35,019 bases of DNA from Moorella sp. UBA4076 (GCA_002383405.1 DFYS01000099.1:20525-55543), one strand, 5' to 3'; positions 14,731 through 34,875 are shown, numbered from the stretch's first letter. Program-made: numbers and translations. Notes: generated by a model from the letters alone, not told the origin.

Positions 14731-14746
14731 TGGCATGTCTTTTGCA
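14731..14746 (+). promoter_or_regulatory. Sigma-54 (SigL) -24/-12 promoter
   Basis: TGGCATGTCTTTTGCA fits TGGCACG-N4-TTGCW with exact GG-N10-GC spacing and lies directly downstream of a sigma-54 activator gene. Predicted +1 near 14757. Confidence 0.88.
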
Positions 14747-14981
14747 TGTATTAAAATGTTGAGGAGATAAAACTTAAATTGCAGAGAGAGGGGGATTGCG
14801 GTATTGCCGATACCAGAAACGGCCTGCGCTGAAAAGTCTTTTTAATACCCAGGTTGTTGGCTTGTTGGAATTTATTCCGACGGTGCCAGCTATGTACAAG
14901 TGGGCTCCAGGATTTTTAATCTCTCCGTTATATCTGAGATCCCGATGGAACTTTTTTTAACAGAAGGGAGGAAAAACGTAA

Positions 14982-15221
14982 ATGGAAACCAGTCCGAAGA
15001 CAAACGGACCAGCGCCGGCTCCCAAAGACAACTTGAGTACTGCCAGGCGGAGATGGACCTGGGTATTCGTAGTTCTTGTTTTACTAGCATACGTGGTGCC
15101 GTTCACAGTACTGTCCGGCGTCCATAAGATTTACGGGGCGTTCCTGTTCTGGACCCTGTTTGCCGTTGTGTCCATCGCCTGTATGATTGTGATTACCGGG
15201 AATTGGAGGGATTTAAGTTGA
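14982..15221 (+). CDS. Small two-TM partner protein of the solute:sodium symporter
   Basis: 79 aa, strong GGGAGG RBS, two TM segments (AYVVPFT...YGAFLFW). Its stop overlaps the symporter start, as in small-protein/SSS gene pairs. Confidence 0.8.
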   Translation: METSPKTNGPAPAPKDNLSTARRRWTWVFVVLVLLAYVVPFTVLSGVHKIYGAFLFWTLFAVVSIACMIVITGNWRDLS

Positions 15222-16699
15222 GCGCAACTCTTGTTTATGCCGCCATGTTTATCTATATTATCATTGCTACGGTTTTTGCCTTCATGTCCAAGAGAGGCAT
15301 GGGCAGGGGGATGACCGAATATTTCCTGGGCAACCGGGCCATGGGCGGTTTTGTATCTGCCCTGACCTACAGCGCTACCACCTACAGCGCCTTTATGATG
15401 ATAGGCTTGGCGGGTCTTACTTATACCGGCGGAGTTGGCGCCCTGGGTTATGAGCTACTTTATCTTTGCGGCCTGGTTCTGGCTGTTTATTTTGGTCCCA
15501 GGTTCTGGCTGGCAGGGAAAAAATACGATTATGTAAGTCCGACCGAACTTCTCGGGCACCGTTACGACAGCAAGGGAGTAGCTATATTAACCGCCCTGGC
15601 CTGCTGCATCTTCCTTATTCCATACAGTGCCGTCCAATTGATGGGGATAGGCTATCTGATGGAAGGCCTGTCCGGGGGAACTATTACTTTTATGACGGGA
15701 TTGATTATCGCCGTCCTGGTAGCTGTCTTTTGGGCCTTAATTGCGGGTCTCAGGTCGGTAGCCTGGACTGATGCCCTGCAGGCGTTATTGATGATAGTCG
15801 TTGCCATTGCGGTATTGCTGGTTGTGGTATACAAAGGGCTGGGTGGTTTTGGCGGGCTGTTTGCAGCTTTGGAAGCAGACGCCCCATCTCTGCTGGCGGT
15901 TACCCCTAAAGAAGGATATTTCAAGTTTAGCACCTTCCTGGGATTGAGCCTGCCCTGGTTCTTCTTCTGTATATCTAATCCCCAGGTGAGCCAGCGCCTT
16001 TATACGCCCAGGACCCTCAAAGACATGCGTGTCATGTTAATTGGATTCCTTATTTTCGGCCTGGTTTATACTCTGGTTTCAGTTTTGTGGGGCTTTTCCG
16101 CCAGGATGCTGATCCCGGGCTTATCCAAAGCCGACCTGGCAACCCCGTCCCTGCTGGCCTTACCTATAGTTCCCATGCTGCTAGCCCTGCTTGCCATGGT
16201 GGGTATTACGGCGGCAGCTATTTCTACGATTGACTCCATTTTCTTGACCCTGTCTTCGATGGTAGCGCGGGATATCTATAAAAACCTGGTTCCCAATGCC
16301 TCGGATGACTCTCAGCTGTTAGTTAGCAAGATCTTTATCCCCATCATTGCCATCGCTGCGTTCCTGTTTGCCCGCTTACAGCTGGGGTTGATTGCGGTTC
16401 TGTCGACCGCTGCATCTGCCGGTTTATTGGTGATGGTACCGGCGATCTTCGGCGCTTTCTTCTGGAAGAAGGGAACTTCCGCAGGGGTAATTGCCAGCAC
16501 CCTGATCGCGGGCGGCCTCAGCTTTTACCTGCAGTTCAGCGGTTTGCGTCCGCTGGGTTGGTGGCCCGGTATCTGGGCTATCATTGTCTCGATCATCCTG
16601 TTTGTGGGGGTCAGCCTGGTCACCCAACCGAATACTCAAAGAGCGGAAGAATTTATGGGTTACGTAAATAACAACTTAAAGCTGCATAACGCCATTTAA
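15218..16699 (+). CDS. Sodium:solute symporter (SSS, PanF/PutP-like), candidate nicotinate importer
   Basis: EYFLGNRAMG, ATTYSAF, GLRSVAWTDALQA and AAAISTIDS SSS motifs, with many TM segments. Start moved to TTG 15218 (GGAGG at 15205-15209, TTGA overlap). Substrate is inferred from context only. Confidence 0.88.
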   Translation: MSATLVYAAMFIYIIIATVFAFMSKRGMGRGMTEYFLGNRAMGGFVSALTYSATTYSAFMMIGLAGLTYTGGVGALGYELLYLCGLVLAVYFGPRFWLAGKKYDYVSPTELLGHRYDSKGVAILTALACCIFLIPYSAVQLMGIGYLMEGLSGGTITFMTGLIIAVLVAVFWALIAGLRSVAWTDALQALLMIVVAIAVLLVVVYKGLGGFGGLFAALEADAPSLLAVTPKEGYFKFSTFLGLSLPWFFFCISNPQVSQRLYTPRTLKDMRVMLIGFLIFGLVYTLVSVLWGFSARMLIPGLSKADLATPSLLALPIVPMLLALLAMVGITAAAISTIDSIFLTLSSMVARDIYKNLVPNASDDSQLLVSKIFIPIIAIAAFLFARLQLGLIAVLSTAASAGLLVMVPAIFGAFFWKKGTSAGVIASTLIAGGLSFYLQFSGLRPLGWWPGIWAIIVSIILFVGVSLVTQPNTQRAEEFMGYVNNNLKLHNAI

Positions 16700-16821
16700 A
16701 ATAAAGAGTGAATCATATTGCCTTATAAAAAAGGCGCCTAAAGAGGATAAAAACACTATTATCAAGAGGCACATGACCCAAGGCATGGGGAGATAAGGTC
16801 CTGAAGGAACTGGTTTAAATG

Positions 16822-16858
16822 ATGGGCGCGGGAAGCTCAGGTGGGCGCCCGCGCCTAT
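16822..16858 (+). other. Strong intercistronic hairpin without U-tail before ndhF
   Basis: ATGGGCGCGGG (16822-16832) pairs with CCCGCGCCTAT (16848-16858), with an inner GCTCA/TGGGC stem. Confidence 0.5.
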
Positions 16859-16885
16859 AAAACCTATAAAAAGGACGAGATAAAG

Positions 16886-17761
16886 GTGCTCAAGCTACAG
16901 GAATTTTGCCAACCGGTAGAGTTAAAGAAGGCCCTGGACCTACTGGCAGTTGCCGGAGACCAATTAAAGCCCCTGGCCGGCGGGACAGATCTTATACCTG
17001 CTGCTCGCCAGGGCGAATTGAAAATTAAGGGGTTCCTGGATCTTTCCCGGTTAGAGGAATTAAAGGGGATAAAGGAAGAGGGCCGGGAAATACACCTTGG
17101 CAGCCTGACCACCTTTAGCCAGCTGGAATTATCTCCATTAATCAAGGACCAGGTCCCTCTGCTGGCGGAAGCAGCGTCTACAGTCGGCTCGCCGCAGATA
17201 AGAAACCAGGGAACTATTGGCGGGAATATCGCCAATGCTTCGCCGGCAGCCGATACGGTAACAGCCCTGGTAGCCCTGGAAGCGCAGGCCAGGCTGGTTT
17301 CCAGCCAGGGAATAAGGGTGGTACCTGTCGATGAATTGCTGTGTGGCATGGGAGAGACCGGTATTCAACCCCAGGAAATTATCCAGGAGGTATTCTTTGC
17401 CATCCCGCCGCCGGAAAACAGAAACGGTTTTGTCAAACTGGGACGGCGTAAAGCCCTGGCTATCGCCAGGATGAATATGGCTGTGATTATTACCCTGGAG
17501 GACGGCGTCATAACCCGAGCCAGGGTAGCCCTGGGGGCCGTAGGCCCCAATCCCTACCGCAATCAGATCCTAGAAGGAGTGCTGGAAGGTCGGAAACCCT
17601 CACCCTCTTTACTTGAGGAGTTTACCAGCGAAGCGGAACAGGAAGTAGCGGCAAAGCTGGGTCCGCGGCCTTCCGCGCCCTATAAACGGGAAGCAATCAA
17701 AGGAATAGCGCGCGATTTATTATCCAGGTTGTTTTTTGGCAATGGTCAGGTGGTGGCATAA
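16886..17761 (+). CDS. ndhF: Nicotinate dehydrogenase FAD subunit (xanthine dehydrogenase family)
   Basis: PLAGGTDL, VGSPQIRNQGTIGGNIANASPAAD and KLGRRKALAIAR. Start moved to GTG 16886 behind AAGGA (291 aa). Assignment supported by cluster context. Confidence 0.85.
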   Translation: MLKLQEFCQPVELKKALDLLAVAGDQLKPLAGGTDLIPAARQGELKIKGFLDLSRLEELKGIKEEGREIHLGSLTTFSQLELSPLIKDQVPLLAEAASTVGSPQIRNQGTIGGNIANASPAADTVTALVALEAQARLVSSQGIRVVPVDELLCGMGETGIQPQEIIQEVFFAIPPPENRNGFVKLGRRKALAIARMNMAVIITLEDGVITRARVALGAVGPNPYRNQILEGVLEGRKPSPSLLEEFTSEAEQEVAAKLGPRPSAPYKREAIKGIARDLLSRLFFGNGQVVA

Positions 17762-18256
17762 ATGGCAGCTTTTCATCTGGAAATGAAGGTTAACGGTGAA
17801 CTGGTGGCAGTAGATATCGATCCAGGGATGCGTTTGCTGGACGTTTTACGTGAGGTTTTACACCTTACGGGAACAAAAGAAGGATGCGGCGAGGGCGAGT
17901 GCGGCGCCTGTTCCGTAATCCTTGATGGCGAATTGGTGGATTCCTGCCTGGTAATGGCGCCCCAGGCCTATGGTAAAGAAGTAGTCACTATCGAGGGCGT
18001 TGCCGCTCTGGGGCAACTCCATCCCTTGCAGGAGGCTTTTATAGAGGCCGGCGCTGTCCAGTGCGGTTTTTGTACCCCGGGGATGATTCTGGCGGCCAAA
18101 GTTCTCCTGGATCACAACCCCAACCCTGATCGTCAGGAAATAGCCCGGGCGATTTCCGGCAACCTTTGCCGTTGCACCGGCTATAGCAAGATTATAAAGG
18201 CTGTGGAGATAGCAGCATCTAGAATAAAAGCGGAAGCAGGTGCTGCCAGTGATTGA
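17762..18256 (+). CDS. ndhS: Nicotinate dehydrogenase 2x[2Fe-2S] subunit
   Basis: GTKEGCGEGECGAC...SCL and QCGFCTPG...NLCRCTGY. Confidence 0.88.
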   Translation: MAAFHLEMKVNGELVAVDIDPGMRLLDVLREVLHLTGTKEGCGEGECGACSVILDGELVDSCLVMAPQAYGKEVVTIEGVAALGQLHPLQEAFIEAGAVQCGFCTPGMILAAKVLLDHNPNPDRQEIARAISGNLCRCTGYSKIIKAVEIAASRIKAEAGAASD

Positions 18257-19523
18257 AAAAAATATTGTCGGCCAGTCAGTACCAAAGGTAGACGCTTTCG
18301 GAAAAGTAACGGGCCAGACGCGATATGCAGCTGATCTGGATATAGCGGGCGCCCTGCATCTTAAGGTCCTGCGGAGTAAAGTAGCCCATGGCCTGGTAAA
18401 GAAGATAGACACTTCCCGGGCCTTAAAGATACCTGGGGTAACGGCTGTATTTACCCATGCCGATATTCCCGGCAGCAATAGTTATGGTATTATCGTCAAG
18501 GATCAACCGGTCCTTACCAATAAAGTACGTTTTAAAGGTGATGCTATAGCCCTGGTAGCCGCAGAGGAAGAAAGCATTGCCGTAAAAGCACTGGATGCTA
18601 TTGCAGTAGAAATTGAAGAACTGCCGCCCCTGTTTGACATCCAGGCGGCTATGGCCGCAGGAGCCCCGGCCATTCATGACAATGGCAATGTCCTTACGGT
18701 AACGAAAATCAAAAGGGGTAACGTCGAAGCGGCCCTGGACCAGGCAGCTGCGGTAGTAAGCAGGCGGTATACCACCCAGAGGGTGGAGCACGGCTATATC
18801 GAAACCGAAGCCGGTATTGCCTACATGGAGAATGATATGCTGATTATTAAAGCAGGCACCCAGAATCCCCACTATGACCGCAGGGATGCAGCTCGTGTCC
18901 TGGGGCTTCCGATAAATAAAGTCCGGGTCATCCAGACGGCGACCGGCGGCGGTTTTGGCGGCAAACTGGATATTTCCGTTCAGTGTTTCCTGGGCCTGGC
19001 CGCCCTGAAGCTGGGGAGGCCGGTGAAGATAGTTTATGACCGCCAGGAATCCTTCGTGGCTACCGCCAAAAGGCATCCCTTCATTGTCGATTATACCAGC
19101 GTAGCAGCAGCAGACGGGCGATTGCTGGCGGTTAAAGCCAGGATTTTCGGTGATACAGGGGCCTACGCCTCTTATGGGCCGGCAACATTGACGCGGGCGG
19201 CGGTACACGCTACCGGCCCCTACGAGGTCCCCAATGTTGATCTAGAGGCCTTCTGTGTATATACCAATAACTCTTTCAGTGGTGCCATGCGCGGTTTCGG
19301 TACGCCGCAGATAGCCTTTGTTTTTGAGAGCCAGATGGATTTGCTGGCGCGAGAACTGAAAATGAGCCCCCTGGAAATCAGGCGGCGCAATGTTTTACGT
19401 CCTGGCTCGATTACTGCCACCGGGCAGGAATTAACCAGCAGCGTAGGCATTGCCAAAACCCTGGAGGCGGCCTGGGCCAGGGCCCTGGAAGTCATGCCCG
19501 GCCTGGGGGGTGATTGCAGGTGA
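18249..19523 (+). CDS. ndhL: Nicotinate dehydrogenase large molybdopterin subunit
   Basis: N-terminal half of a split Mo-hydroxylase, about 425 aa: TQNPHYDR, TGGGFGGKLDISVQC, KRHP, GDTGAYASYGPA..TR and GAMRGFG.PQ, closely resembling E. barkeri NdhL as I recall it. GTG 18249 is preferred over 18240 on RBS spacing. Confidence 0.88.
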   Translation: MIEKNIVGQSVPKVDAFGKVTGQTRYAADLDIAGALHLKVLRSKVAHGLVKKIDTSRALKIPGVTAVFTHADIPGSNSYGIIVKDQPVLTNKVRFKGDAIALVAAEEESIAVKALDAIAVEIEELPPLFDIQAAMAAGAPAIHDNGNVLTVTKIKRGNVEAALDQAAAVVSRRYTTQRVEHGYIETEAGIAYMENDMLIIKAGTQNPHYDRRDAARVLGLPINKVRVIQTATGGGFGGKLDISVQCFLGLAALKLGRPVKIVYDRQESFVATAKRHPFIVDYTSVAAADGRLLAVKARIFGDTGAYASYGPATLTRAAVHATGPYEVPNVDLEAFCVYTNNSFSGAMRGFGTPQIAFVFESQMDLLARELKMSPLEIRRRNVLRPGSITATGQELTSSVGIAKTLEAAWARALEVMPGLGGDCR

Positions 19524-20524
19524 AGAAGCGTGGTTTTGGCATCGGCTGTATGTCGTACGGCATTGGTAATACGGGTCTTCCCAACCCGGCCGGAGCTTTT
19601 GTCGATTTCCTCGATGATGGCACAGTTATCGTCCTGACGGGCTGTGCCGATATCGGCCAGGGGTCCAGTACCATTCTGGCCCAGATAGCAGCTGAGACTC
19701 TGGGAGTTGCCTTTGAAGATGTAGTTGTTGTGGCTGGGGATACAGGGGTGACACCGGATGCCGGAGCAACCTCGGCTTCCCGTCAGACGTATATTTCGGG
19801 TAATGCAGTTTTTGAGGCGGCCCGAAAGGCCAGGCAGGAGGTTATCGCCGGGGCTGCGGCTGTCCTGGGAGTGCCGCCGGAAGAGATCAACCTGAAAAAC
19901 GGCCGGGTATGGCATGGTGAAGAACCAACCAGTCTAAGCATTAAAGAAGTTATCTCTAAATGCCGGAGTGAAGGGATTTTAACCCTGGGTCACGGCTGGT
20001 TCAACCCCGCCACTACCAGACTGGACCCGGCTACCGGCCAGGGTATACCCTATGCCACTTATGCTTTTGCCACCCAGGTGGCCGAGGTCGAAGTGGACAC
20101 GGAAACAGGTATCGTCGAAGTTAAAAGAATAGTTGCCGCCCATGATGTTGGCCGGGCGATTAACCCGCAGAACGTCGAAGGTCAAATTGAGAGCGGTTGC
20201 AGTATGGGTATCGGCTACGCTCTTTTGGAAGAAGTAGTAGTTAAAGAAGGCGAGATTCAAAATCCGGCTTTTTCCACCTATTTAATGCCAACGGCTATGG
20301 ATGTACCGGAAGTATATCCGATAATTGTTGAAGAACTAGAACCAACCGGCCCTTACGGCGCCAAAGGGGTGGGGGAGCCGGCCCTGGTGCCCACGGCGGC
20401 GGCCATCACCAACGCTGTTGCCGACGCATTGGGACTCCGCTTTTATGATTTGCCGCTAACACCCGAAAGGGTTGTGGCCGAAATAAAAAAGTCCAGAGAG
20501 AAAAAGGAGGATGATGGTCAATGA
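19520..20524 (+). CDS. ndhM: Nicotinate dehydrogenase medium molybdopterin subunit
   Basis: Begins MKKRG.G.G.M.YGIGNTGLPNPA, as E. barkeri NdhM does. ADIGQGS, ATSASRQT, and catalytic Glu in GAKGVGEP. GTG 19520 overlaps the ndhL stop (GTGA), with GGGGGTG RBS. Confidence 0.88.
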   Translation: MKKRGFGIGCMSYGIGNTGLPNPAGAFVDFLDDGTVIVLTGCADIGQGSSTILAQIAAETLGVAFEDVVVVAGDTGVTPDAGATSASRQTYISGNAVFEAARKARQEVIAGAAAVLGVPPEEINLKNGRVWHGEEPTSLSIKEVISKCRSEGILTLGHGWFNPATTRLDPATGQGIPYATYAFATQVAEVEVDTETGIVEVKRIVAAHDVGRAINPQNVEGQIESGCSMGIGYALLEEVVVKEGEIQNPAFSTYLMPTAMDVPEVYPIIVEELEPTGPYGAKGVGEPALVPTAAAITNAVADALGLRFYDLPLTPERVVAEIKKSREKKEDDGQ

Positions 20525-21760: not shown

Positions 21761-23272
21761 ATGATGGTCAGGATTGACCTGGAACTATGCAACGGCTGTG
21801 GCCTTTGCGCCCGGAATTGCCCCCTGGAATGCATAACCATAGCCGAAAAAAAGGCCGTTATAGGGGCCGGGTGTTCTTCCTGCGGTATCTGTACCCGGGT
21901 CTGTAACCGGGGTGCGGCGCAAAAGGTAGATGAAGCTTATGCGGGGAGTGTCACCTGCAGCCATTGCCCGGTCCAGTGCCAGGTCCAGGAGGGCTTTACC
22001 GGCGCCTGCCGCCGTTATACCAATATTAAAGGGCAACTGGTCCGCAACCGGCCGCTGGTAACCAGCGTCCCCAAACCCACCCTGCCGCCACCGGAAATAG
22101 AATGGCCCTTAATCACGGCCATCGGTGCCGGGACCGAGTATCCCTGCCCGCGCCCGGCTCCCTATATCGTCCAGGGCCAGCGGGGCGGCATCGAGGTTGT
22201 AACCGTTGTTACGGAAGCTCCTTTAAGCTATAGCGGTATTAAAGTCAAGATCGATACTAACTTGCATATTGGCGAAGAAGGCGCCAGGGTGCGCCGCGAC
22301 GGCCAGGTAGTGGGGATGGTTGATACTGAGGAATATGGCTCCAAAATGCTCTATATCGGCGGCGCTAACCTCTTAACCGGCAAGTCGGGTTTTATGGCCG
22401 CCCGGACGATTGTCGACCTGGCCAACGGGCGGCGGGTGACCTTAAAGGTTGAAAACGGTGGTAAGCTGGTACTCCAGGTGGGGCACCGCCCGGTGATCGA
22501 CGGTCAGGAAGATACTACCATGCGGGTGGGGTGTGGCAGCGCCACCATCGGTCTCTTCGCCCGTGACCTGAAAGGGGTGGTGGATGAAGCCATTATCCTC
22601 GACCACCATATTATCGGCCTCTTTTCTGAGCACCTGGCCGGCCAGGAAGTCGGTATGACCTACAGTGGCGTCGTCCCGGCCGGGCGCAAGAGCACCCGCG
22701 GTCGATATTTCGGCGATCCCGGCAACGGTTGGGGAGGTACGGCCATTACCGACCCCCGCCAGGCCATCAAAGCCGTTGATATGAATGTCGCCAGGCCGGG
22801 GATGCGCATCCTCGTCACCGAAACTACGGCCCGTAAGGCGGCTCTGTTTGAGGTACAGCCTGACGGGGATGTCCGGGAGATACCCCTTACACCGGAGGTG
22901 CGAAAGGTAATCGAGCTTATTGCTTCCAACTGCGAGGAAGCCCGGGTGGCGGCCCTGTACGTCGGCGGTACCGGCGGTTCGGCCCGGGCCGGGGTGACTA
23001 CATTGCCGGTAGAGCTTACCAGGGCCGTCCACCGGGGTGAAATAAAACTGACCATCGGGGGAGCGCCGGCCATGCTTCTGCCCGGTGGCGGTATCAATTT
23101 CATGGTGGATGTGGAAAAGGTGGCTGCCCCGGAGGCCTTTTACTGGGTGCCGACGCCGGCTACGGTGGCTCCGGTGGAATATACCATGTTGAAGAGTACC
23201 TATGAACGTATCGGCGGCCACTTACACCGCCTGCGCTTTGTGGAAGAAGTTGTAGCCGGGGTCAGGGATTAA
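21761..23272 (+). CDS. hnr: 6-hydroxynicotinate reductase (Fe-S flavoprotein)
   Basis: About 503 aa. N-terminal 2x[4Fe-4S] motifs (CNGCGLC...CP and CSSCGIC...C), extra CSHCPVQC...C cluster motif, VTVVTE..LSY.G.KVKIDT, MRVGCGSATIG, GGSARAGVT, PGGGI and VPTPA.VAPVEYT. AGGAGG RBS; the start could be 21764. Confidence 0.9.
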   Translation: MMVRIDLELCNGCGLCARNCPLECITIAEKKAVIGAGCSSCGICTRVCNRGAAQKVDEAYAGSVTCSHCPVQCQVQEGFTGACRRYTNIKGQLVRNRPLVTSVPKPTLPPPEIEWPLITAIGAGTEYPCPRPAPYIVQGQRGGIEVVTVVTEAPLSYSGIKVKIDTNLHIGEEGARVRRDGQVVGMVDTEEYGSKMLYIGGANLLTGKSGFMAARTIVDLANGRRVTLKVENGGKLVLQVGHRPVIDGQEDTTMRVGCGSATIGLFARDLKGVVDEAIILDHHIIGLFSEHLAGQEVGMTYSGVVPAGRKSTRGRYFGDPGNGWGGTAITDPRQAIKAVDMNVARPGMRILVTETTARKAALFEVQPDGDVREIPLTPEVRKVIELIASNCEEARVAALYVGGTGGSARAGVTTLPVELTRAVHRGEIKLTIGGAPAMLLPGGGINFMVDVEKVAAPEAFYWVPTPATVAPVEYTMLKSTYERIGGHLHRLRFVEEVVAGVRD

Positions 23273-24108
23273 TGTTCCAAATGCTGGACCCCTTTCGCGC
23301 CCTGCTGGATATCGGCCCGGTGCAGATGAGCATTATGGCTGAACGCCGGGGGCAGCCTCTGGGACGGGAATGGCACCGGCTGGAAGGGCTGGTAACAGGA
23401 TGGCTGGAGGATTTAAAACGCTACCTGCCTCTCGCCCGGAAGCCGTGGCCTTTGCTTGCCAATCCGGAGGGCTGGCCGCGGGTCCTGGACCGGATGTATG
23501 CTGCCGTTAAAACTGCAGGAGATCCGAGTCTTACCCCCATGGCAGCCGTCGCCGGTACCATGGCGGAACTGGTGGGCGATTACCTGGTAAAACAGGGGGC
23601 AACCAAAGTCCTGGTCAATAACGGCGGCGATATTGCTCTCCGCCTCGGCCGGGGCGAGAAGACCCGGGTCGGCATCGCCCCCCGCCTGGGGGCGCCGCCC
23701 TCCCACTACCTGGACATCAGGGCGGGGGATCATATTGGCGGTATTGCCACCAGCGGCCGGGGCGGGCGCAGCTTTACCGTGGGGATTGCTGACGCAGCCG
23801 TAGCTATTGCTGCTTCGGCGGCGGTCGCCGACGCCTCTGCCACCGTCCTGGGCAATGCGGTGAATGTAGATTCCCCGTTGATCCAGCGCCGGCCGGCGCG
23901 GGAGCTTGACCCGGCTACCGATATCCCGGAACTCCTGGTGACCACGGTCGTCGGTCCCCTGCCGGAAGAATTACAGGTCGCGGCCCTGGAAAGGGGCATA
24001 GCAACAGGGCGGCGATTGGTAGAGGACGGGGCCCTCCTGGGGGCGGTAGTATACCTGAACGGTTTTACGCGCCAGTACCCGGAGGGCCTGGTCCATCCAA
24101 TTAACTGA
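23272..24108 (+). CDS. UPF0280 / ApbE-superfamily protein (putative cytoplasmic flavin transferase)
   Basis: LTPMAAVAG, VLVNNGGDIA, GIATSGRGGRSFTVGIADA and ADASAT..GN. No signal peptide. TAATG overlap with hnr. Confidence 0.82.
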   Translation: MFQMLDPFRALLDIGPVQMSIMAERRGQPLGREWHRLEGLVTGWLEDLKRYLPLARKPWPLLANPEGWPRVLDRMYAAVKTAGDPSLTPMAAVAGTMAELVGDYLVKQGATKVLVNNGGDIALRLGRGEKTRVGIAPRLGAPPSHYLDIRAGDHIGGIATSGRGGRSFTVGIADAAVAIAASAAVADASATVLGNAVNVDSPLIQRRPARELDPATDIPELLVTTVVGPLPEELQVAALERGIATGRRLVEDGALLGAVVYLNGFTRQYPEGLVHPIN

Positions 24109-24927: not shown

Positions 24928-24930
24928 TTA

Positions 24931-26049: not shown

Positions 26050-27469
26050 AGTTCAGGCCCTGGTAGATTACCTGGCGGGTCGGCCCCAGCCATTTAACCC
26101 CTTAACCCTGGGGGGCCTTTTACACCTGGCGGATCAATATGTTACCAGGGTAAGCGAGATAGTGGTGGCCGAAGCCTGCTTTAACGAACACCTCGCACCG
26201 GAAGAAGTGCTGGCCAGGGTAGAGACCGCCTTTGACCACAACCTGGAAACCGTCCGGCTGGGGATGGACCGGGACAGCCAGAGCTTTCTTATGGGCCGGG
26301 TCGGCTATGAATTAACCCGGCAACCGGGTCAGATTACTAACGATTCTTTTCTCGATCGAGCCATCAGCCTTACCCTGGCGGCCCAGGTGGGCAACCACCT
26401 GGTGGGCCTGGCCCCCTGCGCCGGAACCGGTGACGCCTGTGTTTTCAGCGGCCTGACGGCGGCCATGTTGGAGGCATACCCGCGGGAAGAGGTATGGCCG
26501 GCTGTAGCTGTAATGCTCCGGGTCGGTACTTTTTTCCGAGCCGGCAAGACGACCACAGGTTGTAATATGGAAGGCCTGGGCGCCGGCGCATGCGGCACGG
26601 CGGCCGCGCTGGTGGAACTGGCCGGCGGCGGCCCCCGGGAAATGGACAGGGCCATGGTCCTGGCCCTGTCGCCGACTATCAGCGTGCCCTGTACCCCCAG
26701 GGTAATGGTCCCGGGCTTGTGTGCCACCCATATCGGCGGCGCGCTGATGCTGGGGCAGCTGGCCGCCGGGCTGGCCCTTAAAACCTCGATACCGGTCAAT
26801 GTTCCCGTGGATGTAATGCTGGCCCTGGCTGCCAGGGTCCACCAGGTTTCAGCGCGGACAATTGTACCTGAGGTTATTCGTTACATGGAGGCCTACTTCA
26901 AGAGCGACCCCCGGGTTGATCGCTATATTGAAGAACAGGTTAAAAGTGAAGAAGAACAAAGGCGGGCGGCGGTAGCCGGCCGGGCCCGGGAAGAGGTCGG
27001 CCGGCTGGCCGAGCTGGCCAATCCCGTTATCAAACCCTTTGGCGAGGTAGTAGTGGGCGGCAGCAGCCAGGCCGTAGGTTCACCCACCAATACCGCCCGG
27101 ATCGCCCACGCTCTGGCGGGAGACGCAACGATCCAAAAGGTGCTGATCGAACTCTACCCGGAGCTTTTTGCCCGGCGGGCAATCAATGTGCCCGGTATTC
27201 TTATGGGGGCTGTTTACGGCGCCAGCACGGCCGACAGCCAGAGCTATCACCAGATTCTGAACGAATTGCCCCGGCTGGGTATCACGGTAGAGATTAAAGA
27301 AGCCAATGAACCGCAGCTCCAGCGGGTGACGCTAGAGACCAGCGCGGGCCGGGTTATAGTTGACGCCCGCAATCGTGGCGGCGGTCGCCTGGCTCTGGTA
27401 GAGGCCATCCCTTCCCTGGAGGCAGCCCTGGAAGCAGCGCAAAAGCTGGGCATTGTAATTGTACCTTGA
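26033..27469 (+). CDS. hmd: 2-(hydroxymethyl)glutarate dehydratase ([4Fe-4S], serine dehydratase alpha+beta-like fusion)
   Basis: 478 aa. Alpha-like region with APCAG and C-X42-C-X9-C (GCNMEG...[13 protein letters not shown]), then a beta-like region [19 protein letters not shown]. Lies between hgd and mgm. Confidence 0.82.
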
Positions 27470-27507: not shown

Positions 27508-29361
27508 ATGCAGGAAAAGACGCAAGCTATTATCAGGGAAGATATCGACCGGGTGCGGGCCTACGCCCGGCTCTTCGGCGTCACCATGCCGGAAGTGGGA
27601 CCCGACGGCTCGGTTAAGGGGCTACCGGCGCCTTACCCGCGGGAAGTGGCCGGCATGATTCGCGACGGGCATCGCCTGACCGCACTGGCGCGCCAGGCCG
27701 CTCATACCGGTATACCGGTCCAGAACCCCATCCTGGGCCGCAATTCCGGGGCCGAGACCTTGGCGCAATCCCGGGACATGTATGCCATTGCCGATCAACT
27801 GGGCATTAAGCTCTTCCATTTTGTCCATTCTGAAGCTACCCGCCATATCGACCCCCTGGATGGGGCGGAACTGATCGAGCAGTCGCGGGGGAAAGGGGGC
27901 ATAACTCCCAAAGGGGAGCGGGAGTTTGTCCAGATAGGCGGGGGTGCCGTCCACCCCCTGCGCATTAACGCCACCGGCGATACGCCGCACCTATCCATTT
28001 TGAATGCCTTTATAGCCGGCTTTGACGGGACGGACATCGGCCCGGTCATTCACGTTCATTTTGGCGGCCGGGGCATCCACGATTATAAAACCAAAGTCAA
28101 AAATGGCTTTAAGGCGCTGGAAATTTGCGCTGAAAACAATATCTATGTTCAGATAGAGTCCCATAAGCACCTGAACAATATCGGCGGCACCGACGGTGCC
28201 GGGTTAGCCGGTTGCCTTCTGGCTGAAGGACTGGCCGTCCTGGCGGGGTTGCCAGCGGAACTGGGCGCCCTGCAGATGAATGTCGCCGGGATTAACCTCC
28301 TGGCTGATCTGGCCGCTATCCGCGCTTTCCGCCGGGTGATGGGGAGCGAAGCCCTTATCGTCGTGCCGGAGACCTTCCAGAACCCACCTCCGGATTTAAT
28401 CGCTGAGCAGGGGCACTTCGCCCGCATGGCCATGGCGGCCAGGCTTGGCGGCGCCAATTTCTACCGGCCCAAGGCAGCCGAATCCGTTGGCATTCCTACA
28501 GGTGAATCCATGGGCCATGCTATCTGGGCCACCCAGAATATCTTTGAAAACATGGCTTCCATCACCATTAATGACCCGGCCATCGACCGCCGGGAAGAAA
28601 TCATTTTGACCGAAGCCATGGCCGTCCTGGCGGCTACCCTGGGATTAAAATCCCTGCCGGCCCCCGAAGATATAACGGCTGCCTTCTGGCGGCGCTATGA
28701 GCCGGAGGAGTTAATCGAGAAGATTGTGACTGCCGGCAAGCAGGGAATATTGGACGCCCCCCGGGCCGGGGGCTGGGATCTCAAGCGGGCGGTTAAAACC
28801 CACCGCGACCGGGACGGCATTCGCCGTTACGTGCCCGGCTACGGGCCGGCCATGATTGACCCCAGATATCTGGATTTCAGCCAGGAAGAAGTTTCAGTTC
28901 CAGCTCTACCTCCGGTTTCAGAAAAGGCCAGGGTTGTCCTGGCTACAGTAGGAGCTGATGCTCATGTCGTAGGGATTAACCAGATCCGGGAGGCCTTTCA
29001 GCAGGCCGGCTTTGAAGTCATCTACATGCGGGGTATGAATTTACCGGAGACGGTGGCGGAAGTTGTTGCCGAGAGCAAGGCACAGGTAGTCGGCGTGAGC
29101 AACCTCCTGGGCCTGGGGATCACCCTGTTCCCCCGCCTGGATAAACGCTTGAAAGAACTGGGCCTGCGGGATAAAGTACTGGTAATAGCCGGCGGGCGGA
29201 TCGCCGAAAAAGAGGAAGAACACGCCGAACTGGAAGCAAAGATCAAAACTGAAGGACCGGAATTTATCGGGGTGGACGCCTTTTTCGGACCGGGGACCGA
29301 TCCCCAGGAACCGGTAGCCTGGGTCCGGGCCCATTTAAAGGAGGTTATGGGTGATGAGTGA
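27508..29361 (+). CDS. mgm: 2-methyleneglutarate mutase (adenosylcobalamin-dependent)
   Basis: 617 aa from ATG 27508 (AGGAG RBS), starting [49 protein letters not shown], and a C-terminal B12 domain with DxHxxG (GADAHVVG), GVSNL and AGG. Closely follows E. barkeri Mgm as I recall it. Confidence 0.93.
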
Positions 29362-30508
29362 GATGCTGCGCGTGCGCTGTGCCATCTTACGCGGGGGGAC
29401 CAGCAAGGGCATATTTTTACATGAAAATGATTTGCCCTGCGATCGGGTTTTAAGGGACCGGATGATCCTGGCTATTTTCGGCAGTCCTGATGTGCGCCAG
29501 ATTGACGGCCTGGGCGGGGCCGATCCCCTGACCAGCAAGTTGGCCATTATCGGCCCTTCCTCCCGGCCCGACGCCGATGTTGATTATACCTTCGGCCAGG
29601 TAAGCATCAAGGAGCCGTTGATCGACTACTCCGGCAACTGCGGCAATATCTCGGCAGCTGTAGGTCCTTTTGCCATTGACGAGGGTCTGGTTCGCGCTCA
29701 GGAACCGGTAACTGACGTCCGTATTCACAATACCAACACCGGTAAGATTATCGTCGCCGAGGTGCCGGTCCAAAACGGTAAAGCCAGGGTAACGGGGGAT
29801 TATCAAATCGACGGGGTTCCCGGAACGGGTGCGAAAATCATGCTCGACTTTGCCGGGACGGCCGGGGCGGCCACCGGCAGGCTGTTACCGACAGGGCGGC
29901 CGGTCGATGTCCTGGACGTTCCCGGTTACGGCCGTCTGGAGGTCTCTTTGATCGATGCAGCCAACCCCATGGTTTTTGTCCGGGCGGCTGCCCTGGGCCT
30001 TAAAGGGACCGAAGCACCGGCAGAGATTGACAGTAACCCGGGACTTCTGGAGTTGTTAGAGACGATCCGCGCCCTGGGGGCCTGCGCCATGGGCCTGGCT
30101 GCCACCCCGGAGGAAGCCAGCCGGCGCATCCCGGCCTTCCCCATGCTGGCCTTCGTCGCCCCGCCCCAAGATTATCATAGCTTTACCACCCAGAGATTGA
30201 TCAAGGCGGAAGAGGTCGACTTTGTTTCCCGGTTGATGTATATGCAAGTAATGCACAAAACCTACGCCGGTACCGGCACTACCTGTACCGGGGCTGCCGC
30301 CGCCATTCCCGGGACTATCGTCAATGAAGTTTCGCATCGTCATAAGGGACTGATCCGCATCGGCCACCCGGCGGGGGTTATTTCCATTGAAGTGGCTGCC
30401 GCCATTCAGGGGAATGAAATAACCCTTACCCGGGCGGCCGTCGGCCGCACGGCGCGGCGGCTGATGGATGGTTATGTTTATGTAGTCGCGGAAAATATGC
30501 AGGCCTAA
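29354..30508 (+). CDS. mii: 3-methylitaconate isomerase (PrpF family)
   Basis: [47 protein letters not shown] and RTARRLMDG. Overlaps the mgm stop. AGGAGG RBS; the start is 29354 or GTG 29351. Confidence 0.88.
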
Positions 30509-30522: not shown

Positions 30523-31956
30523 ATGGAAATAAAAGCCTTTGATGTCGGCAGCACTTTTACTAAGGTTAATGCTTACCGGCTGGAAGCCGGCCGTTTACAG
30601 TGGCTGGCCCGCGCCCAGGCGCCGACGACGGTTCAGGATATCCGCGTGGGGCTGGAACAGGCGCTGAAAGGCTTACCGGGAGGCCCCGGCTTGCCAGACC
30701 TGGCGGGCCAGCAGGTTTTGGCTTCCAGCAGTGCCGCCGGGGGCCTGCGGATGGTGGCCATCGGCTATATGCCGCGGGTGACGGCCAAGGCTGCCCTGGA
30801 GGTGGCCATGAATGCCGGGGCCAGGGTCCTGGAGGTGTTATCCGAAGAGGATACCCCGGCCTATCGCCGGGAGGTCCTGCTGGAGATCAAGCCGGACATT
30901 GTTCTTCTTACCGGGGGGACCGACGGCGGCGATACTGACGCCCTATGGCAGAATGCCTGCCTCCTGGCGGATTTAAAGCTCCCGGCAGTGGTTATTATTG
31001 CCGGTAACAGCCAGGCCCAGGCCCGGGCGGCCGAGATTTTGGCAGCCGCCGGAGTCAGGCACCGGCGGGTGGCCAACGTTATGCCCACCATCCACGAATT
31101 GCGGGTCCAGCCGGCCAGGGAGGCCATTCACGGGGAGTTTATCCGCCAGATTACCCGAGCGCCGGGATTGCGTTACCTGGAGGGCCTGGTTCCCGGGGGT
31201 GAGGTTATCCCTACACCCGGGGCCGTCCTCATGGGGGCCGAACTTTTAGCCCGCGGCTATTATGAAGAAAAAGGGCTGGGGAGCCTGGTGGTTATTGACC
31301 TGGGCGGGGCGACTACGGATGTCCATTCTGTTATCCCCCAGTTAGAAGGACTTCCCCTGGAAGAGAGGGGCCTCATCTTGACCAATGAAAAACAGGTGGC
31401 CTACCGGACGGTGGAAGGGAACCTGGGCCTGCGGGTCAGTTGCCGGGGGATTGTGGAAACAGTAGGACCGCGCCAGGTTTTACTCCGGGCCAAACTCCCG
31501 GTTACCGAAGAGATGGAGCAGGAACTCCTGGCCTATTGCCAGCGGGTGGAAGGCCAGACGGAGACCCTGGCCGGGAACGAAAAAGAGCGTTGTTTTGACC
31601 GCGGCCTGGCCATAGCAGCCGTAGAAACAGCCTTGAAACGCCATGCCGGGCACTTAAGCCAGGAGTATAACCCGGTGATGGGCATCGCTCCCGGTACGCC
31701 CATGGGTCGGGACCTGCGGCCGGTTAAATATATCATTGCGGTGGGCGGTATTTTTACAGCCCTGCCGGGGGAAGAAGCCAGGGCGATTGTGCGGGAGGCC
31801 TTGGCCAACCGGGGCATTTCCCTTTTACCTCAAGAACCGGAGATCCTCATTGACGGCGACTATTTACTTTATTCCGTGGGCCTTATGGCATCCCGCCACC
31901 CCTATGAAACTCTTAATTTCGCTAAACAGTATTTCGGTTTACTTCCAGATCATTAA
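30523..31956 (+). CDS. GlmL/MutL-type (glutamate mutase L family) accessory ATPase, putative Mgm reactivase
   Basis: DVGSTFTK, SSSAAGGLRM, LLTGGTDGG, PTPGAV, DLGGATTDVHS and RTVEGNLG, the actin-like ATPase motifs of the GlmL family. Confidence 0.85.
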   Translation: MEIKAFDVGSTFTKVNAYRLEAGRLQWLARAQAPTTVQDIRVGLEQALKGLPGGPGLPDLAGQQVLASSSAAGGLRMVAIGYMPRVTAKAALEVAMNAGARVLEVLSEEDTPAYRREVLLEIKPDIVLLTGGTDGGDTDALWQNACLLADLKLPAVVIIAGNSQAQARAAEILAAAGVRHRRVANVMPTIHELRVQPAREAIHGEFIRQITRAPGLRYLEGLVPGGEVIPTPGAVLMGAELLARGYYEEKGLGSLVVIDLGGATTDVHSVIPQLEGLPLEERGLILTNEKQVAYRTVEGNLGLRVSCRGIVETVGPRQVLLRAKLPVTEEMEQELLAYCQRVEGQTETLAGNEKERCFDRGLAIAAVETALKRHAGHLSQEYNPVMGIAPGTPMGRDLRPVKYIIAVGGIFTALPGEEARAIVREALANRGISLLPQEPEILIDGDYLLYSVGLMASRHPYETLNFAKQYFGLLPDH

Positions 31957-31972: not shown

Positions 31973-32851
31973 ATGCGACCTACAACCAAGCTACGGCAGC
32001 TATTAAACCAGAAACAAATTCTAGTAGCACCGGGTGCTCACGATGTACTGGCGGCTAAGATTATTCAACAGGCGGGCTTTGAGGCCGTTTACTTCACCGG
32101 CTACGGCCAGGCAGCCAGCCACCTGGGGCAGCCCGATGTGGGGCTGCTTACCATGACGGAAATGGTAACCAGGCTCAATAATACCGCGGTCGCCGTCGAC
32201 ATTCCGGTTATTGCCGACGCTGATACCGGCTTTGGCAACGCCATTAACACCATGCGCACCGTCCGGGAATACGAGAAAGCCGGGGCGGCGGCCATCCAAC
32301 TGGAGGACCAGGTTTCACCCAAGAAATGCGGTCATATGCTCGACCGCCAGGTAGTCCCTGTGGAAGAAATGGTGAGCAAAATCAAAGCCGCAGTGGCAGC
32401 CAGGCGCGACCCCGACCTGGTAATTATCGCCCGAACGGACGCCCGGACCAGCAGGGGACTGGAAGAAGCCCTCGCCCGGGGGAGGGCCTACGAAGCCGCC
32501 GGTGCCGACGTGCTCTTCATCGAATCGCCGGAAACTGTGGACGAGATGAAGCAGATTTGCTCTTCTTTTAAAGTTCCTGTGTTGGCCAATATGGTAGAAG
32601 GCGGCCGTACTCCCCTCATGAAAGTTAAAGAGCTGGAGGAACTGGGCTACAGGCTGGTTATTTTCCCCACGGCATCGGTTTATACAGCCGCCAAAGCCTT
32701 AATTGATCTCATGGCTAATTTAAAGGCCAGCGGTACTACCAGGTATTTCATGGAACAGATGTTACCTTTTAGCGATTTCAACAAGCTTATCGGCCTGCCG
32801 GAGATTAAAGAACTGGAAAAAAAATACGCCACCAACGGCTGCTGTCATTAA
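31973..32851 (+). CDS. dml: 2,3-dimethylmalate lyase (ICL/PEP mutase family)
   Basis: PVIADADTGFG, LEDQVSPKKCGH, IIARTDA and NMVEGGRTP. Start moved to ATG 31973 (GGGAGAGG RBS), 292 aa. Specificity inferred from context. Confidence 0.85.
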   Translation: MRPTTKLRQLLNQKQILVAPGAHDVLAAKIIQQAGFEAVYFTGYGQAASHLGQPDVGLLTMTEMVTRLNNTAVAVDIPVIADADTGFGNAINTMRTVREYEKAGAAAIQLEDQVSPKKCGHMLDRQVVPVEEMVSKIKAAVAARRDPDLVIIARTDARTSRGLEEALARGRAYEAAGADVLFIESPETVDEMKQICSSFKVPVLANMVEGGRTPLMKVKELEELGYRLVIFPTASVYTAAKALIDLMANLKASGTTRYFMEQMLPFSDFNKLIGLPEIKELEKKYATNGCCH

Positions 32852-32872
32852 TTGTGGAGAGGGATTAAGCAA

Positions 32873-34135
32873 ATGGGCATGACCATTACCGAAAAGATCC
32901 TGGCCGCCCACGCCGGCCTTGAACACGTGGAGCCAGGCCAGCTCATCAACGCCAAGGTAGACCTGGCCCTGGGGAACGACATCACTGCCCCGCTAGCTAT
33001 CCAGGAATTTAAAAAACTGGGCGTCAAGAAGGTCTTTGATCCGGAGCGGGTGGTTCTAGTGCCGGATCACTTCACCCCGGCCAAGGACATCCAGTCCGCC
33101 GAGCAGGCGAAAATATTACGCGAATTCGCCCGCGAGCAGGGGCTCACCAACTACTTCGAAATCGGCCGCATGGGCATCGAACACTGCCTGCTGCCCGAAG
33201 CCGGGCTGGTCGGCCCCGGGGATCTGGTCATCGGCGCCGACTCCCACACCTGTACCTACGGCGCCTTGGGGGCCTTCGCCACGGGGGTGGGCTCCACGGA
33301 CTTAGCCGCCGCCATGGTCACCGGCGAGCTATGGTTCAAAGTACCCGCAACCATCCTTTTTAGATACCACGGCAAGCTCCAGCCCTGGGTCGGCGGCAAG
33401 GACCTCATTATCTACACCATCGGCCAGATCGGCGTCGACGGCGCCCGCTACATGGCCATGGAGTTCACCGGAGAAGCCGTAAGAGAGCTCTCCATGGACG
33501 GCCGCTTCACCATGGCCAACATGGCTATCGAAGCCGGAGGTAAAAACGGCATTTTCGCGGTAGACGAAAAGACGAAGGCTTACATCCAGGGCCGCCTAAA
33601 ACGGGACTACCGCATTTACGCGAGCGACCCGGACGCCAGGTACGCCGAGACAATAGACATCGACGTCGCTAAAATCGAACCCCAGGTAGCCCTGCCGCAC
33701 CTGCCCGAGAACGCTCGGAGTGTTAAAGAAATAGGCGAGATCAAGATCGACCAGGTAGTCATCGGCAGCTGCACCAACGGGCGGCTGGAAGACTTAAGGA
33801 TAGCGGCGCAACTGCTGCGGGGCAAGAAGGTCCACCCGGAGGTACGCTTAATCATCATCCCCGGCACGCAAAAGATCTACGCCGGCGCCCTGGCCGAAGG
33901 GCTCATCACCATCTTTATTGAAGCCGGGGCGGCCGTATCCACGCCCACCTGCGGCCCCTGTTTAGGCGGGCATATGGGTATCCTGGCCAGAGGCGAACGG
34001 GCCGTAGCCACCACCAACCGCAACTTTGTCGGCCGCATGGGCCACCCGGAGAGCGAAGTTTATCTCGCCGGCCCGGCAGTAGCCGCCGCCAGCGCCGTCA
34101 AAGGGCGCATTGCCGCCCCCGAAGAGGCTATTTGA
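32873..34135 (+). CDS. dmdA: 2,3-dimethylmalate dehydratase large subunit (LeuC/HacA-type aconitase family)
   Basis: 420 aa from ATG 32873. [30 protein letters not shown] and [11 protein letters not shown]. Sequence alone cannot separate it from LeuC; dmdA is called from context (no leuA or leuB nearby). Confidence 0.75.
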
Positions 34136-34357
34136 GAGGTGAGAGGTGAGAGATGGGAGGGGGGGACGGGCAAGGGCACAACTGATGCCAATCCCCTATT
34201 CTCTGTCTATTTTGTGAAGAAGCGTCTAGGGGGGCACATGTTCCCCCGGAGAAACATGAAAATGCTGGGGATGAGGATACCGGGGCTTTAATCTGAAACT
34301 GGCGCCGCAAGTTTTGGCAGGCATCCCACCTCCAAATTCCCCTATCTCACATCTCAT
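34135..34357. repeat. Heptamer-bracketed intergenic element, copy B (dmdA-dmdB)
   Basis: Left array AGAGGTG AGAGGTG AGAGATG GGAGGGG (34135-34162). Right array CACCTCC AAATTCC CCTATCT CACATCT CAT (34327-34357). 34287-34357 aligns ungapped to 11510-11580 at 51/71 positions by hand count. Confidence 0.8.
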
Positions 34358-34374
34358 TTTCGGAGGATGATATC

Positions 34375-34875
34375 ATGCTTATTCAAGGGAAGTGCCACAC
34401 CTTCGGCAATGACATCGACACCGACGCTATCATTCCGGCGCGGTATCTGAATACCTCCGACCCTGGAGAACTCGCCCGTCACTGCATGGAAGACGCCGAC
34501 CCCACCTTTGCCGGGCGGGTAAAGGCCGGGGAAATAATAGTGGCCGGGAAAAACTTCGGCTGCGGCAGCTCCCGGGAGCACGCGCCGGTAGCCATCAAGG
34601 CCGCCGGGGTAGCGGCGGTCGTCGCCGCTTCCTTTGCCCGTATCTTCTATCGCAACGCCATCAATATCGGCCTGCCCATCTTCGAGTCGCCGGCCGCGGC
34701 GGCGGGGATAGCCGCCGGGGATGAAATAAAGATCGATGCCGGGAAGGGCGAGATAGTGAACCTGACGAAAGGGGAAACCTACCCGGTGGCATCTTTCCCG
34801 CCTTTCATGCAGGAACTTATTGCCGCCGGGGGGTTAATGCCCTATGTGGCCGGGAAGGTTGGAGGGTATTCTTGA
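34375..34875 (+). CDS. dmdB: 2,3-dimethylmalate dehydratase small subunit (LeuD-type)
   Basis: [30 protein letters not shown] and [24 protein letters not shown]. Called from context. Confidence 0.75.

What the first reader, a model, noticed from the sequence alone, without database searches (positions are those of the whole stretch)
14731..34875. Complete B12-dependent anaerobic nicotinate fermentation cluster in a Moorella-like organism
Seen: one co-oriented, often overlapping run of genes covering every step of the E. barkeri route. Established pathway: nicotinate -> 6-hydroxynicotinate (NdhFSLM) -> tetrahydro-6-oxonicotinate (Hnr) -> 2-formylglutarate + NH4+ (Ena) -> 2-hydroxymethylglutarate (Hgd) -> 2-methyleneglutarate (Hmd) -> 3-methylitaconate (Mgm) -> dimethylmaleate (Mii) -> dimethylmalate (DmdAB) -> propionate + pyruvate (Dml). 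Mgm is a rare enzyme and the pathway is biochemically known mainly from E. barkeri. Inference: this host, likely a thermophilic acetogen, can use niacin as a carbon, nitrogen and energy source. I know of no description of that for this group, and generic annotation (xdh, prpF, prpB, leuCD, sdaA) would hide it. It would also be a source of possibly thermostable Mgm, Hnr and NDH.
Basis: partly seen in the sequence, partly recalled or inferred. Interest (0 to 1): 0.9.

Follow-up and report, generated by a model that had tools for sequence, protein, structure and literature searches.

The report
Vitamin B3 fermentation operon in Moorella
A heat-loving Moorella-type bacterium carries an intact, complete gene set matching the known oxygen-free route for breaking down vitamin B3, so it likely ferments niacin; the route is known and fairly widespread, and the one oddity is that a near-copy of the cell's own leucine-synthesis enzyme is predicted to carry out one step.

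Summary
Confirmed. Window 14731-34875 is one intact + strand operon. NdhF/L/M, Ena, Hgd and Mii each hit the chain solved for the E. barkeri pathway (recalled) as best PDB match. Hnr, Hmd and Mgm match proteins so named in relatives and keep their cofactor motifs. The host is a Moorella/Neomoorella acetogen with SelD, YqeB and an adenosyltransferase. A PrpR-like activator and sigma-54 promoter are conserved in 7 of 7 Moorellaceae loci. It is not rare: Mgm occurs in 16 of 400 phylum genomes and 6 of 27 class relatives, GenBank already names Mgm, Hnr and enamidase in several Moorella strains, and this scan found the pathway before in four other genomes. New detail: the 'dmdAB' pair is a duplicate of housekeeping leuCD, homogenised with the leucine-operon copy within genomes (identical over 2,109 bp in one; monophyly of cluster copies rejected, p=1e-55). 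25 of 27 non-Moorellaceae loci carry a different aconitase pair. Growth on nicotinate is untested. New member of a known kind; interest moderate.

The parts
12700..14631 (+).
   Evidence: an orthologue (63-89%) lies beside 6 of 6 other Moorellaceae clusters
14731..14746 (+). sigma-54 promoter, TGGCA-N5-TTGCA type
   Evidence: 12 exact matches in the 2.0 Mb genome; present before the first gene in 7 of 7 Moorellaceae loci; rpoN in genome
14982..15221 (+). 79-aa membrane protein, likely partner of the symporter
   Evidence: no family match above cut-off
15218..16699 (+). sodium:solute symporter, predicted substrate importer; relatives have an aromatic-acid MFS permease here instead
16841..17761 (+). 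ndhF, FAD subunit of nicotinate dehydrogenase (start uncertain)
   Evidence: best PDB hit 3HRD_C
17762..18256 (+). ndhS, 2x[2Fe-2S] subunit
   Evidence: Pfam Fer2 and Fer2_2; position
18240..19523 (+). ndhL, large molybdopterin subunit
   Evidence: 3HRD_A, E 1e-119
19520..20524 (+). ndhM, medium molybdopterin subunit; keeps the nicotinate-binding Tyr13M
   Evidence: 3HRD_B, E 5e-99; Tyr in 21 of 21 cluster copies; role from PMC5746545
20521..21684 (+). ena, enamidase
   Evidence: 2VUN, E 3e-166
21761..23272 (+). hnr, 6-hydroxynicotinate reductase; two CxxCxxCxxxC motifs plus four more invariant Cys (66, 69, 73, 83)
   Evidence: named homologues at 65-77% and in its own 90% cluster; Cys conservation
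23272..24108 (+). UPF0280, ApbE-like protein; candidate Hnr maturation factor
   Evidence: follows hnr in 27 of 27 loci; weak Pfam ApbE match in 25 of 27 members; 2O34
24349..24927 (+). DUF1185 / PF06684 protein, function unassigned
   Evidence: in 31 of 34 loci
25150..26049 (+). hgd, 2-hydroxymethylglutarate dehydrogenase
   Evidence: 3CKY, E 5e-96
26033..27469 (+). hmd, Fe-S 2-hydroxymethylglutarate dehydratase (serine-dehydratase-like)
   Evidence: named homologues at 55-61%; five Cys conserved across 118 homologues; weak SDH_alpha
27508..29361 (+). mgm, single-chain B12-dependent 2-methyleneglutarate mutase, DxHxxG at 484
29354..30508 (+). mii, 3-methylitaconate isomerase
   Evidence: 3G7K, E 6e-146, against 1e-88 to 1e-91 for PrpF
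30523..31956 (+). MutL/GlmL-type accessory protein, predicted mutase reactivase
31973..32851 (+). dml, predicted 2,3-dimethylmalate lyase (ICL/PEP-mutase family)
   Evidence: below the prpB cut-off (304 against 354 bits); follows mutL in 32 of 34 loci
32873..34135 (+). leuC duplicate, predicted to serve as DmdA (dimethylmaleate hydratase large subunit)
   Evidence: 87-93% to leu-operon LeuC of the genus
34136..34374 (.). 239-bp spacer holding a dispersed repeat of about 80 bp
   Evidence: matches on more than ten other contigs of the genome
34375..34875 (+). leuD duplicate, predicted to serve as DmdB
   Evidence: 90-94% to LeuD of the genus; same 90% cluster as Moorella LeuD
34945..34972 (+). 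terminator-like hairpin closing the operon
   Evidence: pattern match only; the scan's total was no higher than in shuffles

Best explanation
This is an intact operon of the Eubacterium barkeri-type nicotinate pathway that likely lets this Moorella-type acetogen ferment nicotinate to propionate, pyruvate and ammonium, predicted to be switched on by the adjacent PrpR-like sigma-54 activator. Inferred flow: the symporter imports nicotinate; NdhFSLM (Mo, probably Se via SelD/YqeB) hydroxylates it; Hnr reduces the ring with ferredoxin; Ena opens it and frees ammonium; Hgd and Hmd give 2-methyleneglutarate; Mgm (coenzyme B12, kept active by MutL) and Mii give dimethylmaleate; a duplicated LeuCD hydrates it; Dml cleaves dimethylmalate. 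Pyruvate would go through pyruvate:ferredoxin oxidoreductase and acetate kinase, returning the ferredoxin used by Hnr and giving about one ATP per nicotinate. Shown: genes, order, motifs, promoter conservation, supporting genes in the genome, and the leuCD duplication with within-genome homogenisation. Inferred: every activity, the inducer, growth, and LeuCD acting on dimethylmaleate.
For: Six proteins have the nicotinate-pathway chain as best PDB hit, four by wide margins. Tyr13M is kept in 21 of 21 cluster NdhM copies, while non-cluster paralogues differ just after it. Hnr, Hmd and Mgm carry matching source names and invariant cofactor ligands. The gene set stays together across 34 loci; mgm and ena occur in the same 6 of 22 family relatives. 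The genome holds selD, yqeB, acsB, PFOR, ack, rpoN and a CobA-type adenosyltransferase. leuCD sits 21 nt after dml, follows dml in 7 of 7 Moorellaceae loci, and no orthologue of the alternative hydratase pair was found in 28 class genomes (best 45%).
Against: No growth, enzyme or expression data. E. barkeri Hnr, Hmd, Mgm, Dml and DmdAB were not available for direct alignment. NdhF is only modestly closer to 3HRD_C than to CO dehydrogenase (136 against 119 bits), so its electron acceptor is open. The window's NdhM has Ser where 20 of 20 other copies have Trp or Phe just before Tyr13M. Dml's best PDB hit is petal death protein, so its specificity rests on context. cobQ and NfnA were not found in this 84.7% complete genome, although both complete relatives searched have them. 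G010 keeps the cluster without ndhFSLM.
Confidence: 0.84

Rival explanations
1. The chemistry is the same but the main natural substrate is 6-hydroxynicotinate or another pyridine carboxylate, and nicotinate is a minor or co-metabolised entry that does not support growth alone.
For: G010 has the whole cluster without an Ndh orthologue (best 45%) and a NadB-like flavoprotein gene in pieces upstream; several Sporomusa-type loci have no ndh next to ena. The ndh genes have lower GC3 (0.52-0.57) than ena to mutL (0.64-0.70), so they look like a separable module. The transporter differs from that of relatives.
Against: This genome has all four ndh genes overlapping ena, with Tyr13M and 3HRD as best hit; 6 of 7 Moorellaceae loci have them.
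Confidence: 0.1
2. The terminal leuCD is only a spare leucine-biosynthesis copy, so the hydratase step is slow or done elsewhere and the pathway stalls at dimethylmaleate.
For: No column separates the 6 cluster LeuC copies from 21 leu-type copies; the copies are homogenised with the housekeeping gene; GC3 0.77 equals that of leuS. The window genome's own leu-operon leuACD is not assembled (contig C151 ends inside leuB).
Against: The pair lies inside the operon right after dml in 7 of 7 family loci, in exactly the clusters that lack the other hydratase pair. Isopropylmalate isomerases hydrate substituted maleates (established knowledge, recalled). Some GenBank records name Moorella LeuD '2,3-dimethylmalate dehydratase small subunit', which suggests that the reference DmdB is itself LeuD-like.
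Confidence: 0.04
3. The cluster is a purine hydroxylase plus methylcitrate-cycle set (xdh, prpF, prpB, acn) that only resembles the nicotinate genes.
For: PrpR-like regulator; generic family hits to xdh, prpF and prpB.
Against: All these equivalog scores are below cut-off; Mii, Ena, Hgd and Ndh structures outscore those families; no methylcitrate synthase is in the window; Hnr, Hmd and Mgm have no place in that scheme.
Confidence: 0.01

Closest known systems
Eubacterium barkeri nicotinate fermentation cluster (Alhapel et al. 2006, PMC1562527, not readable here; PDB 3HRD, 2VUN, 3CKY, 3G7K)
   Same: All nine enzyme steps have a gene; split L/M molybdenum subunit; Tyr13M; single-chain Mgm; MutL-type accessory; six proteins hit these structures best.
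   Different: Thermophilic acetogenic host; PrpR-like sigma-54 control (an earlier scan note says E. barkeri uses LysR; not tested here); sodium symporter; hydratase genes homogenised with the host leuCD. The E. barkeri gene order and DmdAB type could not be compared directly.
Nicotinate clusters of Sporomusa, Peptococcaceae, Veillonellaceae and other Bacillota (L003-L015 and G-handle loci; unstudied)
   Same: Same core genes at about 40-75% identity, same hnr-UPF0280-DUF1185 block, often a PrpR-like activator.
   Different: 25 of 27 carry a separate aconitase-like pair between hmd and mgm (about 40% to the window's pair, small-subunit loop GYAM against RYLN); Moorellaceae carry leuCD after dml.
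Azorhizobium/Bradyrhizobium nicotinate cluster (PMC3511419, passages read)
   Same: [quoted passage not shown]
   Different: Those organisms continue through glutarate to the TCA cycle and have no Mgm branch.
Housekeeping isopropylmalate isomerase LeuCD (TIGR02083/TIGR02084) of Moorella
   Same: 87-93% identity; 0, 5 and 12 amino-acid differences between cluster and leu copies of LeuC in three genomes.
   Different: Sits in a catabolic operon after dml rather than in leuA-leuC-leuD-leuB.

Membership tests
E. barkeri-type nicotinate fermentation cluster | Four-subunit nicotinate dehydrogenase with split L/M subunits and Tyr13M | tested here: met
   Tyr13M role from PMC5746545
E. barkeri-type nicotinate fermentation cluster | Selenium ligand on molybdenum | not testable with these tools
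   selD and yqeB are present; the ligand itself needs biochemistry
E. barkeri-type nicotinate fermentation cluster | Hnr with two [4Fe-4S] motifs and a further Fe-S site (cofactor content recalled) | tested here: met
   invariant Cys 10/13/16/20, 38/41/44/48, 66/69/73/83 in 120 sequences; ferredoxin fold of the model's N-terminus
E. barkeri-type nicotinate fermentation cluster | Orthologues of enamidase, Hgd and Mii | tested here: met
   best PDB hits 2VUN, 3CKY, 3G7K
E. barkeri-type nicotinate fermentation cluster | Single-chain B12 mutase Mgm with DxHxxG, flanked by hmd and mii | tested here: met
   no direct alignment to the E. barkeri sequence
E. barkeri-type nicotinate fermentation cluster | Hmd, Dml and DmdAB orthology by reciprocal comparison with E. 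barkeri proteins | tested here: inconclusive
   source names, motifs and synteny agree; E. barkeri sequences were not obtained
E. barkeri-type nicotinate fermentation cluster | Nicotinate converted to propionate, acetate, CO2 and ammonium by cells | not testable with these tools
   needs culture
Isopropylmalate isomerase LeuCD (TIGR02083/TIGR02084) | Score at equivalog cut-off and grouping with leu-operon copies | tested here: met
   large subunit 733 against cut-off 611; small subunit 230 against 246, just under; nests among leu copies in the tree
ApbE flavin transferase and its target | ApbE-like sequence in UPF0280 | tested here: inconclusive
   Pfam ApbE matches 25 of 27 members at E<=0.01; the window's own score 23.8 is under the cut-off 25.6; single-sequence model unusable, pLDDT 40
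ApbE flavin transferase and its target | D-x-x-[S/T]-G-A-[S/T] acceptor motif in Hnr | tested here: not met
   0 of 120 Hnr sequences; motif from PMC12052999
2-methylcitrate cycle (prpBF, acnD) | PrpB, PrpF and AcnD above cut-off | tested here: not met
   all below cut-off

The most novel reading that the evidence does not exclude
Moorellaceae, including some strains of the model acetogen Moorella thermoacetica, ferment niacin at about 60 C and complete the pathway with their own leucine-biosynthesis isomerase. A duplicate of leuCD is held in the catabolic operon and repeatedly overwritten by gene conversion, so one unspecialised enzyme serves both leucine synthesis and vitamin breakdown under two kinds of regulation, where most other Bacillota clusters use a separate, uncharacterised hydratase.
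Probability: 0.65. Interest if true: 0.55.

Novelty: new member of a known kind. Interest (0 to 1): 0.4.

Why it matters
A pathway characterised in essentially one organism can be tested in deposited thermophilic acetogens (for example Neomoorella carbonis ACPs, DSM 116161, which has the full cluster; M. humiferrea LNE, DSM 117358, which has at least Ena to Dml). It predicts an unreported substrate and product (propionate) for part of the genus. It offers likely heat-tolerant Mgm, Hnr and Hmd, for which no solved relative turned up (for Hnr and Hmd; Mgm not searched). The leuCD duplicate is a clean natural case of a moonlighting enzyme kept from specialising by gene conversion. The pathway itself is known and common in anaerobic Bacillota, so the surprise is limited.

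Tried and rejected
Alhapel 2006 and Wagener 2009 were not held, and no call returned E. barkeri Hnr, Hmd, Mgm, Dml or DmdAB; a search centred on G122 gave only 16 genomes and nothing new. No Rfam match and no tRNA in the window. The repeat search showed only chance-level families. Sigma-70 and terminator scans were at shuffle level (14 against 10.6; 25 against 22.9). The single-sequence model of UPF0280 failed (pLDDT 40). The Hnr model was confident (pLDDT 93), but fold searches matched only the N-terminal ferredoxin; the rest was not searched alone, so a new fold is neither shown nor excluded. Hmd has no meaningful PDB sequence match. The complex predictor and the protein atlas were not available, so Hnr-UPF0280 binding is untested. 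No RNA holder was listed for the operon. The idea that UPF0280 flavinylates Hnr at the standard motif was weakened (0 of 120). A link between the cluster and loss of NAD synthesis was not seen: nadA is present in 6 of 7 cluster-bearing genomes. A search for a paper on nicotinic acid as essential vitamin of M. thermoacetica found none. Supplementary files of the papers were not examined; those of PMC11328732 may list substrates or annotations that bear on novelty.
Full report
Observation. The window is contig C11 of a 2.0 Mb, 84.7% complete genome. From 14982 to 34875 there are 18 intact + strand genes; 7 of 17 junctions overlap and one abuts. A PrpR-like sigma-54 activator lies upstream at 12700-14631. 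An exact TGGCA-N5-TTGCA motif begins at 14731; only 12 such motifs occur in the genome, and one stands before the first gene in 7 of 7 Moorellaceae loci examined.

Identity of the enzymes. Six proteins were compared with the PDB and hit nicotinate-pathway chains best: Ena 2VUN (557 bits, only hit), NdhL 3HRD_A (403 against 199), NdhM 3HRD_B (335 against 173), NdhF 3HRD_C (136 against 119), Hgd 3CKY (325 against 217), Mii 3G7K (489 against 308). That these entries come from E. barkeri is recalled; the tool gave molecule names only. NdhM keeps Tyr13M, modelled to bind the nicotinate nitrogen (PMC5746545, passages), in 21 of 21 cluster copies. Hnr is 77% identical to a protein named 6-hydroxynicotinate reductase and has twelve invariant N-terminal cysteines. 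Hmd is 61% identical to a named 2-hydroxymethylglutarate dehydratase and has five conserved cysteines. Mgm is 79% identical to a named 2-methyleneglutarate mutase and has DxHxxG. Such names are automatic transfers, not tests. Dml is an ICL-family lyase below the PrpB cut-off whose best PDB hit is petal death protein; its assignment rests on context. Direct comparison with E. barkeri was not possible for these proteins.

Host and support. LeuS is 85-88% identical to that of the 12 same-genus genomes and at most 80% to others; the closest named loci are Neomoorella carbonis and Moorella naiadis. The genome has acetyl-CoA synthase, selD, yqeB, PFOR, acetate kinase, rpoN and a CobA-type adenosyltransferase. 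cobQ, NfnA and a PduO-type adenosyltransferase were not found; the first two are in both complete relatives searched. Moorella isolates grow best near 60 C (PMC11328732, passages).

Mechanism. By established chemistry (recalled; outline in PMC9304392 and PMC3511419, passages) nicotinate yields ammonium, propionate and pyruvate. Ndh yields one reduced pyridine nucleotide, Hnr uses reduced ferredoxin, Hgd uses NADH, and pyruvate oxidation returns ferredoxin and gives acetyl-CoA for one ATP. The route is redox-balanced overall. In an acetogen, NADPH from Ndh could be exchanged by Nfn or spent in the Wood-Ljungdahl pathway (inference). None of this was tested.

Distribution. Full-length Mgm is in 4 of 12 same-genus and 2 of 10 other same-family genomes, and 0 of 5 others in the class. 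Ena is in the same six plus a partial hit in G027. In 400 phylum genomes, 16 match the Mgm catalytic part; 3 are Moorellaceae and one (G142) is a fragment. Protein clusters show the genes in records of M. thermoacetica, M. humiferrea, N. glycerini, N. carbonis, M. naiadis and Moorella sp. Hama-1, some already annotated as Mgm, Hnr and enamidase; ndh was not checked for the M. thermoacetica and M. humiferrea records. A 2009 survey found Mgm in none of the genomes then sequenced (PMC2667541, passages), which explains the reputation for rarity. Ten paper searches listed no report of nicotinate use by Moorella; the library lacks most subscription papers. The scan itself noted this pathway in four other genomes.

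The hydratase. The last two genes score as isopropylmalate isomerase and are 87-93% identical to the LeuC that 11 of 12 same-genus genomes carry, whether or not they have the cluster; the twelfth has it in fragments. The copies checked lie in leuA-leuC-leuD-leuB. In five relatives both copies were recovered. Cluster and leu copies of leuC share 96%, 97% and 100% nucleotide identity within three genomes of the genus, against 84-92% between those genomes. In G011 the identical tract is 2,109 bp and spans leuC, the spacer and leuD. Neighbouring cluster genes of L001 and G010 share 93-97%, their leuC only 92%. The seven Moorellaceae Mgm proteins form one clade (support 100, 33 rows), but the six cluster leuC copies do not (AU p=1.5e-55 among 26 rows; p=0.001 for the four of the genus; G040 and G015 left out as long branches). 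No alignment column separates 6 cluster from 21 leu-type LeuC. The simplest reading is inheritance of the cluster with repeated gene conversion from leuCD. Against generality: in G018 and G020 the two copies share only 78% and 73%, and the window genome's own leu copy is not assembled, so conversion is shown in relatives only. Outside the family, 25 of 27 loci carry a different aconitase-like pair between hmd and mgm; G142 is degraded and G171 has none in range; G261 and G395 are near-copies. Which type E. barkeri has is open. GenBank names such as '2,3-dimethylmalate dehydratase small subunit' for Moorella LeuD and 'dmdA' in an acetogen gene list (PMC6925170, passage) suggest that it is LeuCD-like, so the Moorella arrangement may be the classical one.

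Accessory genes. UPF0280 follows hnr in 27 of 27 loci and is weakly ApbE-like. Hnr is recalled to carry a covalent flavin, so a maturation role is plausible, but the standard acceptor motif is absent from 120 of 120 Hnr sequences; I put flavin transfer at about 0.3. DUF1185 is in 31 of 34 loci and stays beside ena or hgd where hnr is missing; a role at the enamine/formylglutarate step is a guess, and its structure paper assigns no activity (PMC2954203, passages). The Hnr model is confident, but only its ferredoxin domain matched solved folds.

Other papers opened: PMC8473912 and PMC7617358 (reference-list hits only); bioRxiv 10.64898/2026.02.13.705874 (passages; cites E. barkeri as the example of nicotinate fermentation).

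Verdict. A real and complete operon, most likely functional (0.84), and a new member of a known kind. The host range and the leuCD homogenisation are worth a short experimental study; interest 0.4.

Noticed in passing
window:2694-10207: Complete multi-subunit Mrp-type cation/proton antiporter operon (E, F, G, B parts, C, three D/A-like subunits) after leuS; it could supply the sodium gradient for the symporter.
   Followed up: no
window:10465-12386: comEA and uppP (bacA) genes between the Mrp operon and the activator.
   Followed up: no
window:14982-16699: This genome has a sodium:solute symporter where six relatives have an aromatic-acid MFS permease; homologues at about 60% occur in six class genomes that lack Mgm.
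   Followed up: partly
window:19520-19570: Ser replaces the Trp/Phe found just before Tyr13M in 20 of 20 other cluster NdhM copies.
   Followed up: partly
window:34136-34374: An element of about 80 bp between leuC and leuD recurs on more than ten other contigs; relatives have a similar dispersed repeat upstream of leuC in the leu operon.
   Followed up: partly
L017:14278-17700 (G010): Cluster without ndhFSLM; a different MFS permease follows the sigma-54 motif, and a NadB-like flavoprotein gene in two pieces lies between activator and promoter.
   Followed up: partly
L092-L093 (G122), L098-L099 (G395), L114-L116 (G155): Some clusters carry two enamidase or two DUF1185 genes, and G155 has two separate Mgm clusters, which hints at a second pyridine substrate.
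   Followed up: no
L104-L105 (G142); L110-L111 (G171): Degraded cluster (mgm fragment, mutL, dml) in G142; G171 lacks hnr, UPF0280 and any hydratase pair in range.
   Followed up: no
L034 (G006): The housekeeping leuC has an internal stop codon in a 99% complete genome.
   Followed up: no
window:21761-23272: Confident model of Hnr (pLDDT 93) whose 400 C-terminal residues matched no solved fold in whole-chain searches; a structural target.
   Followed up: partly
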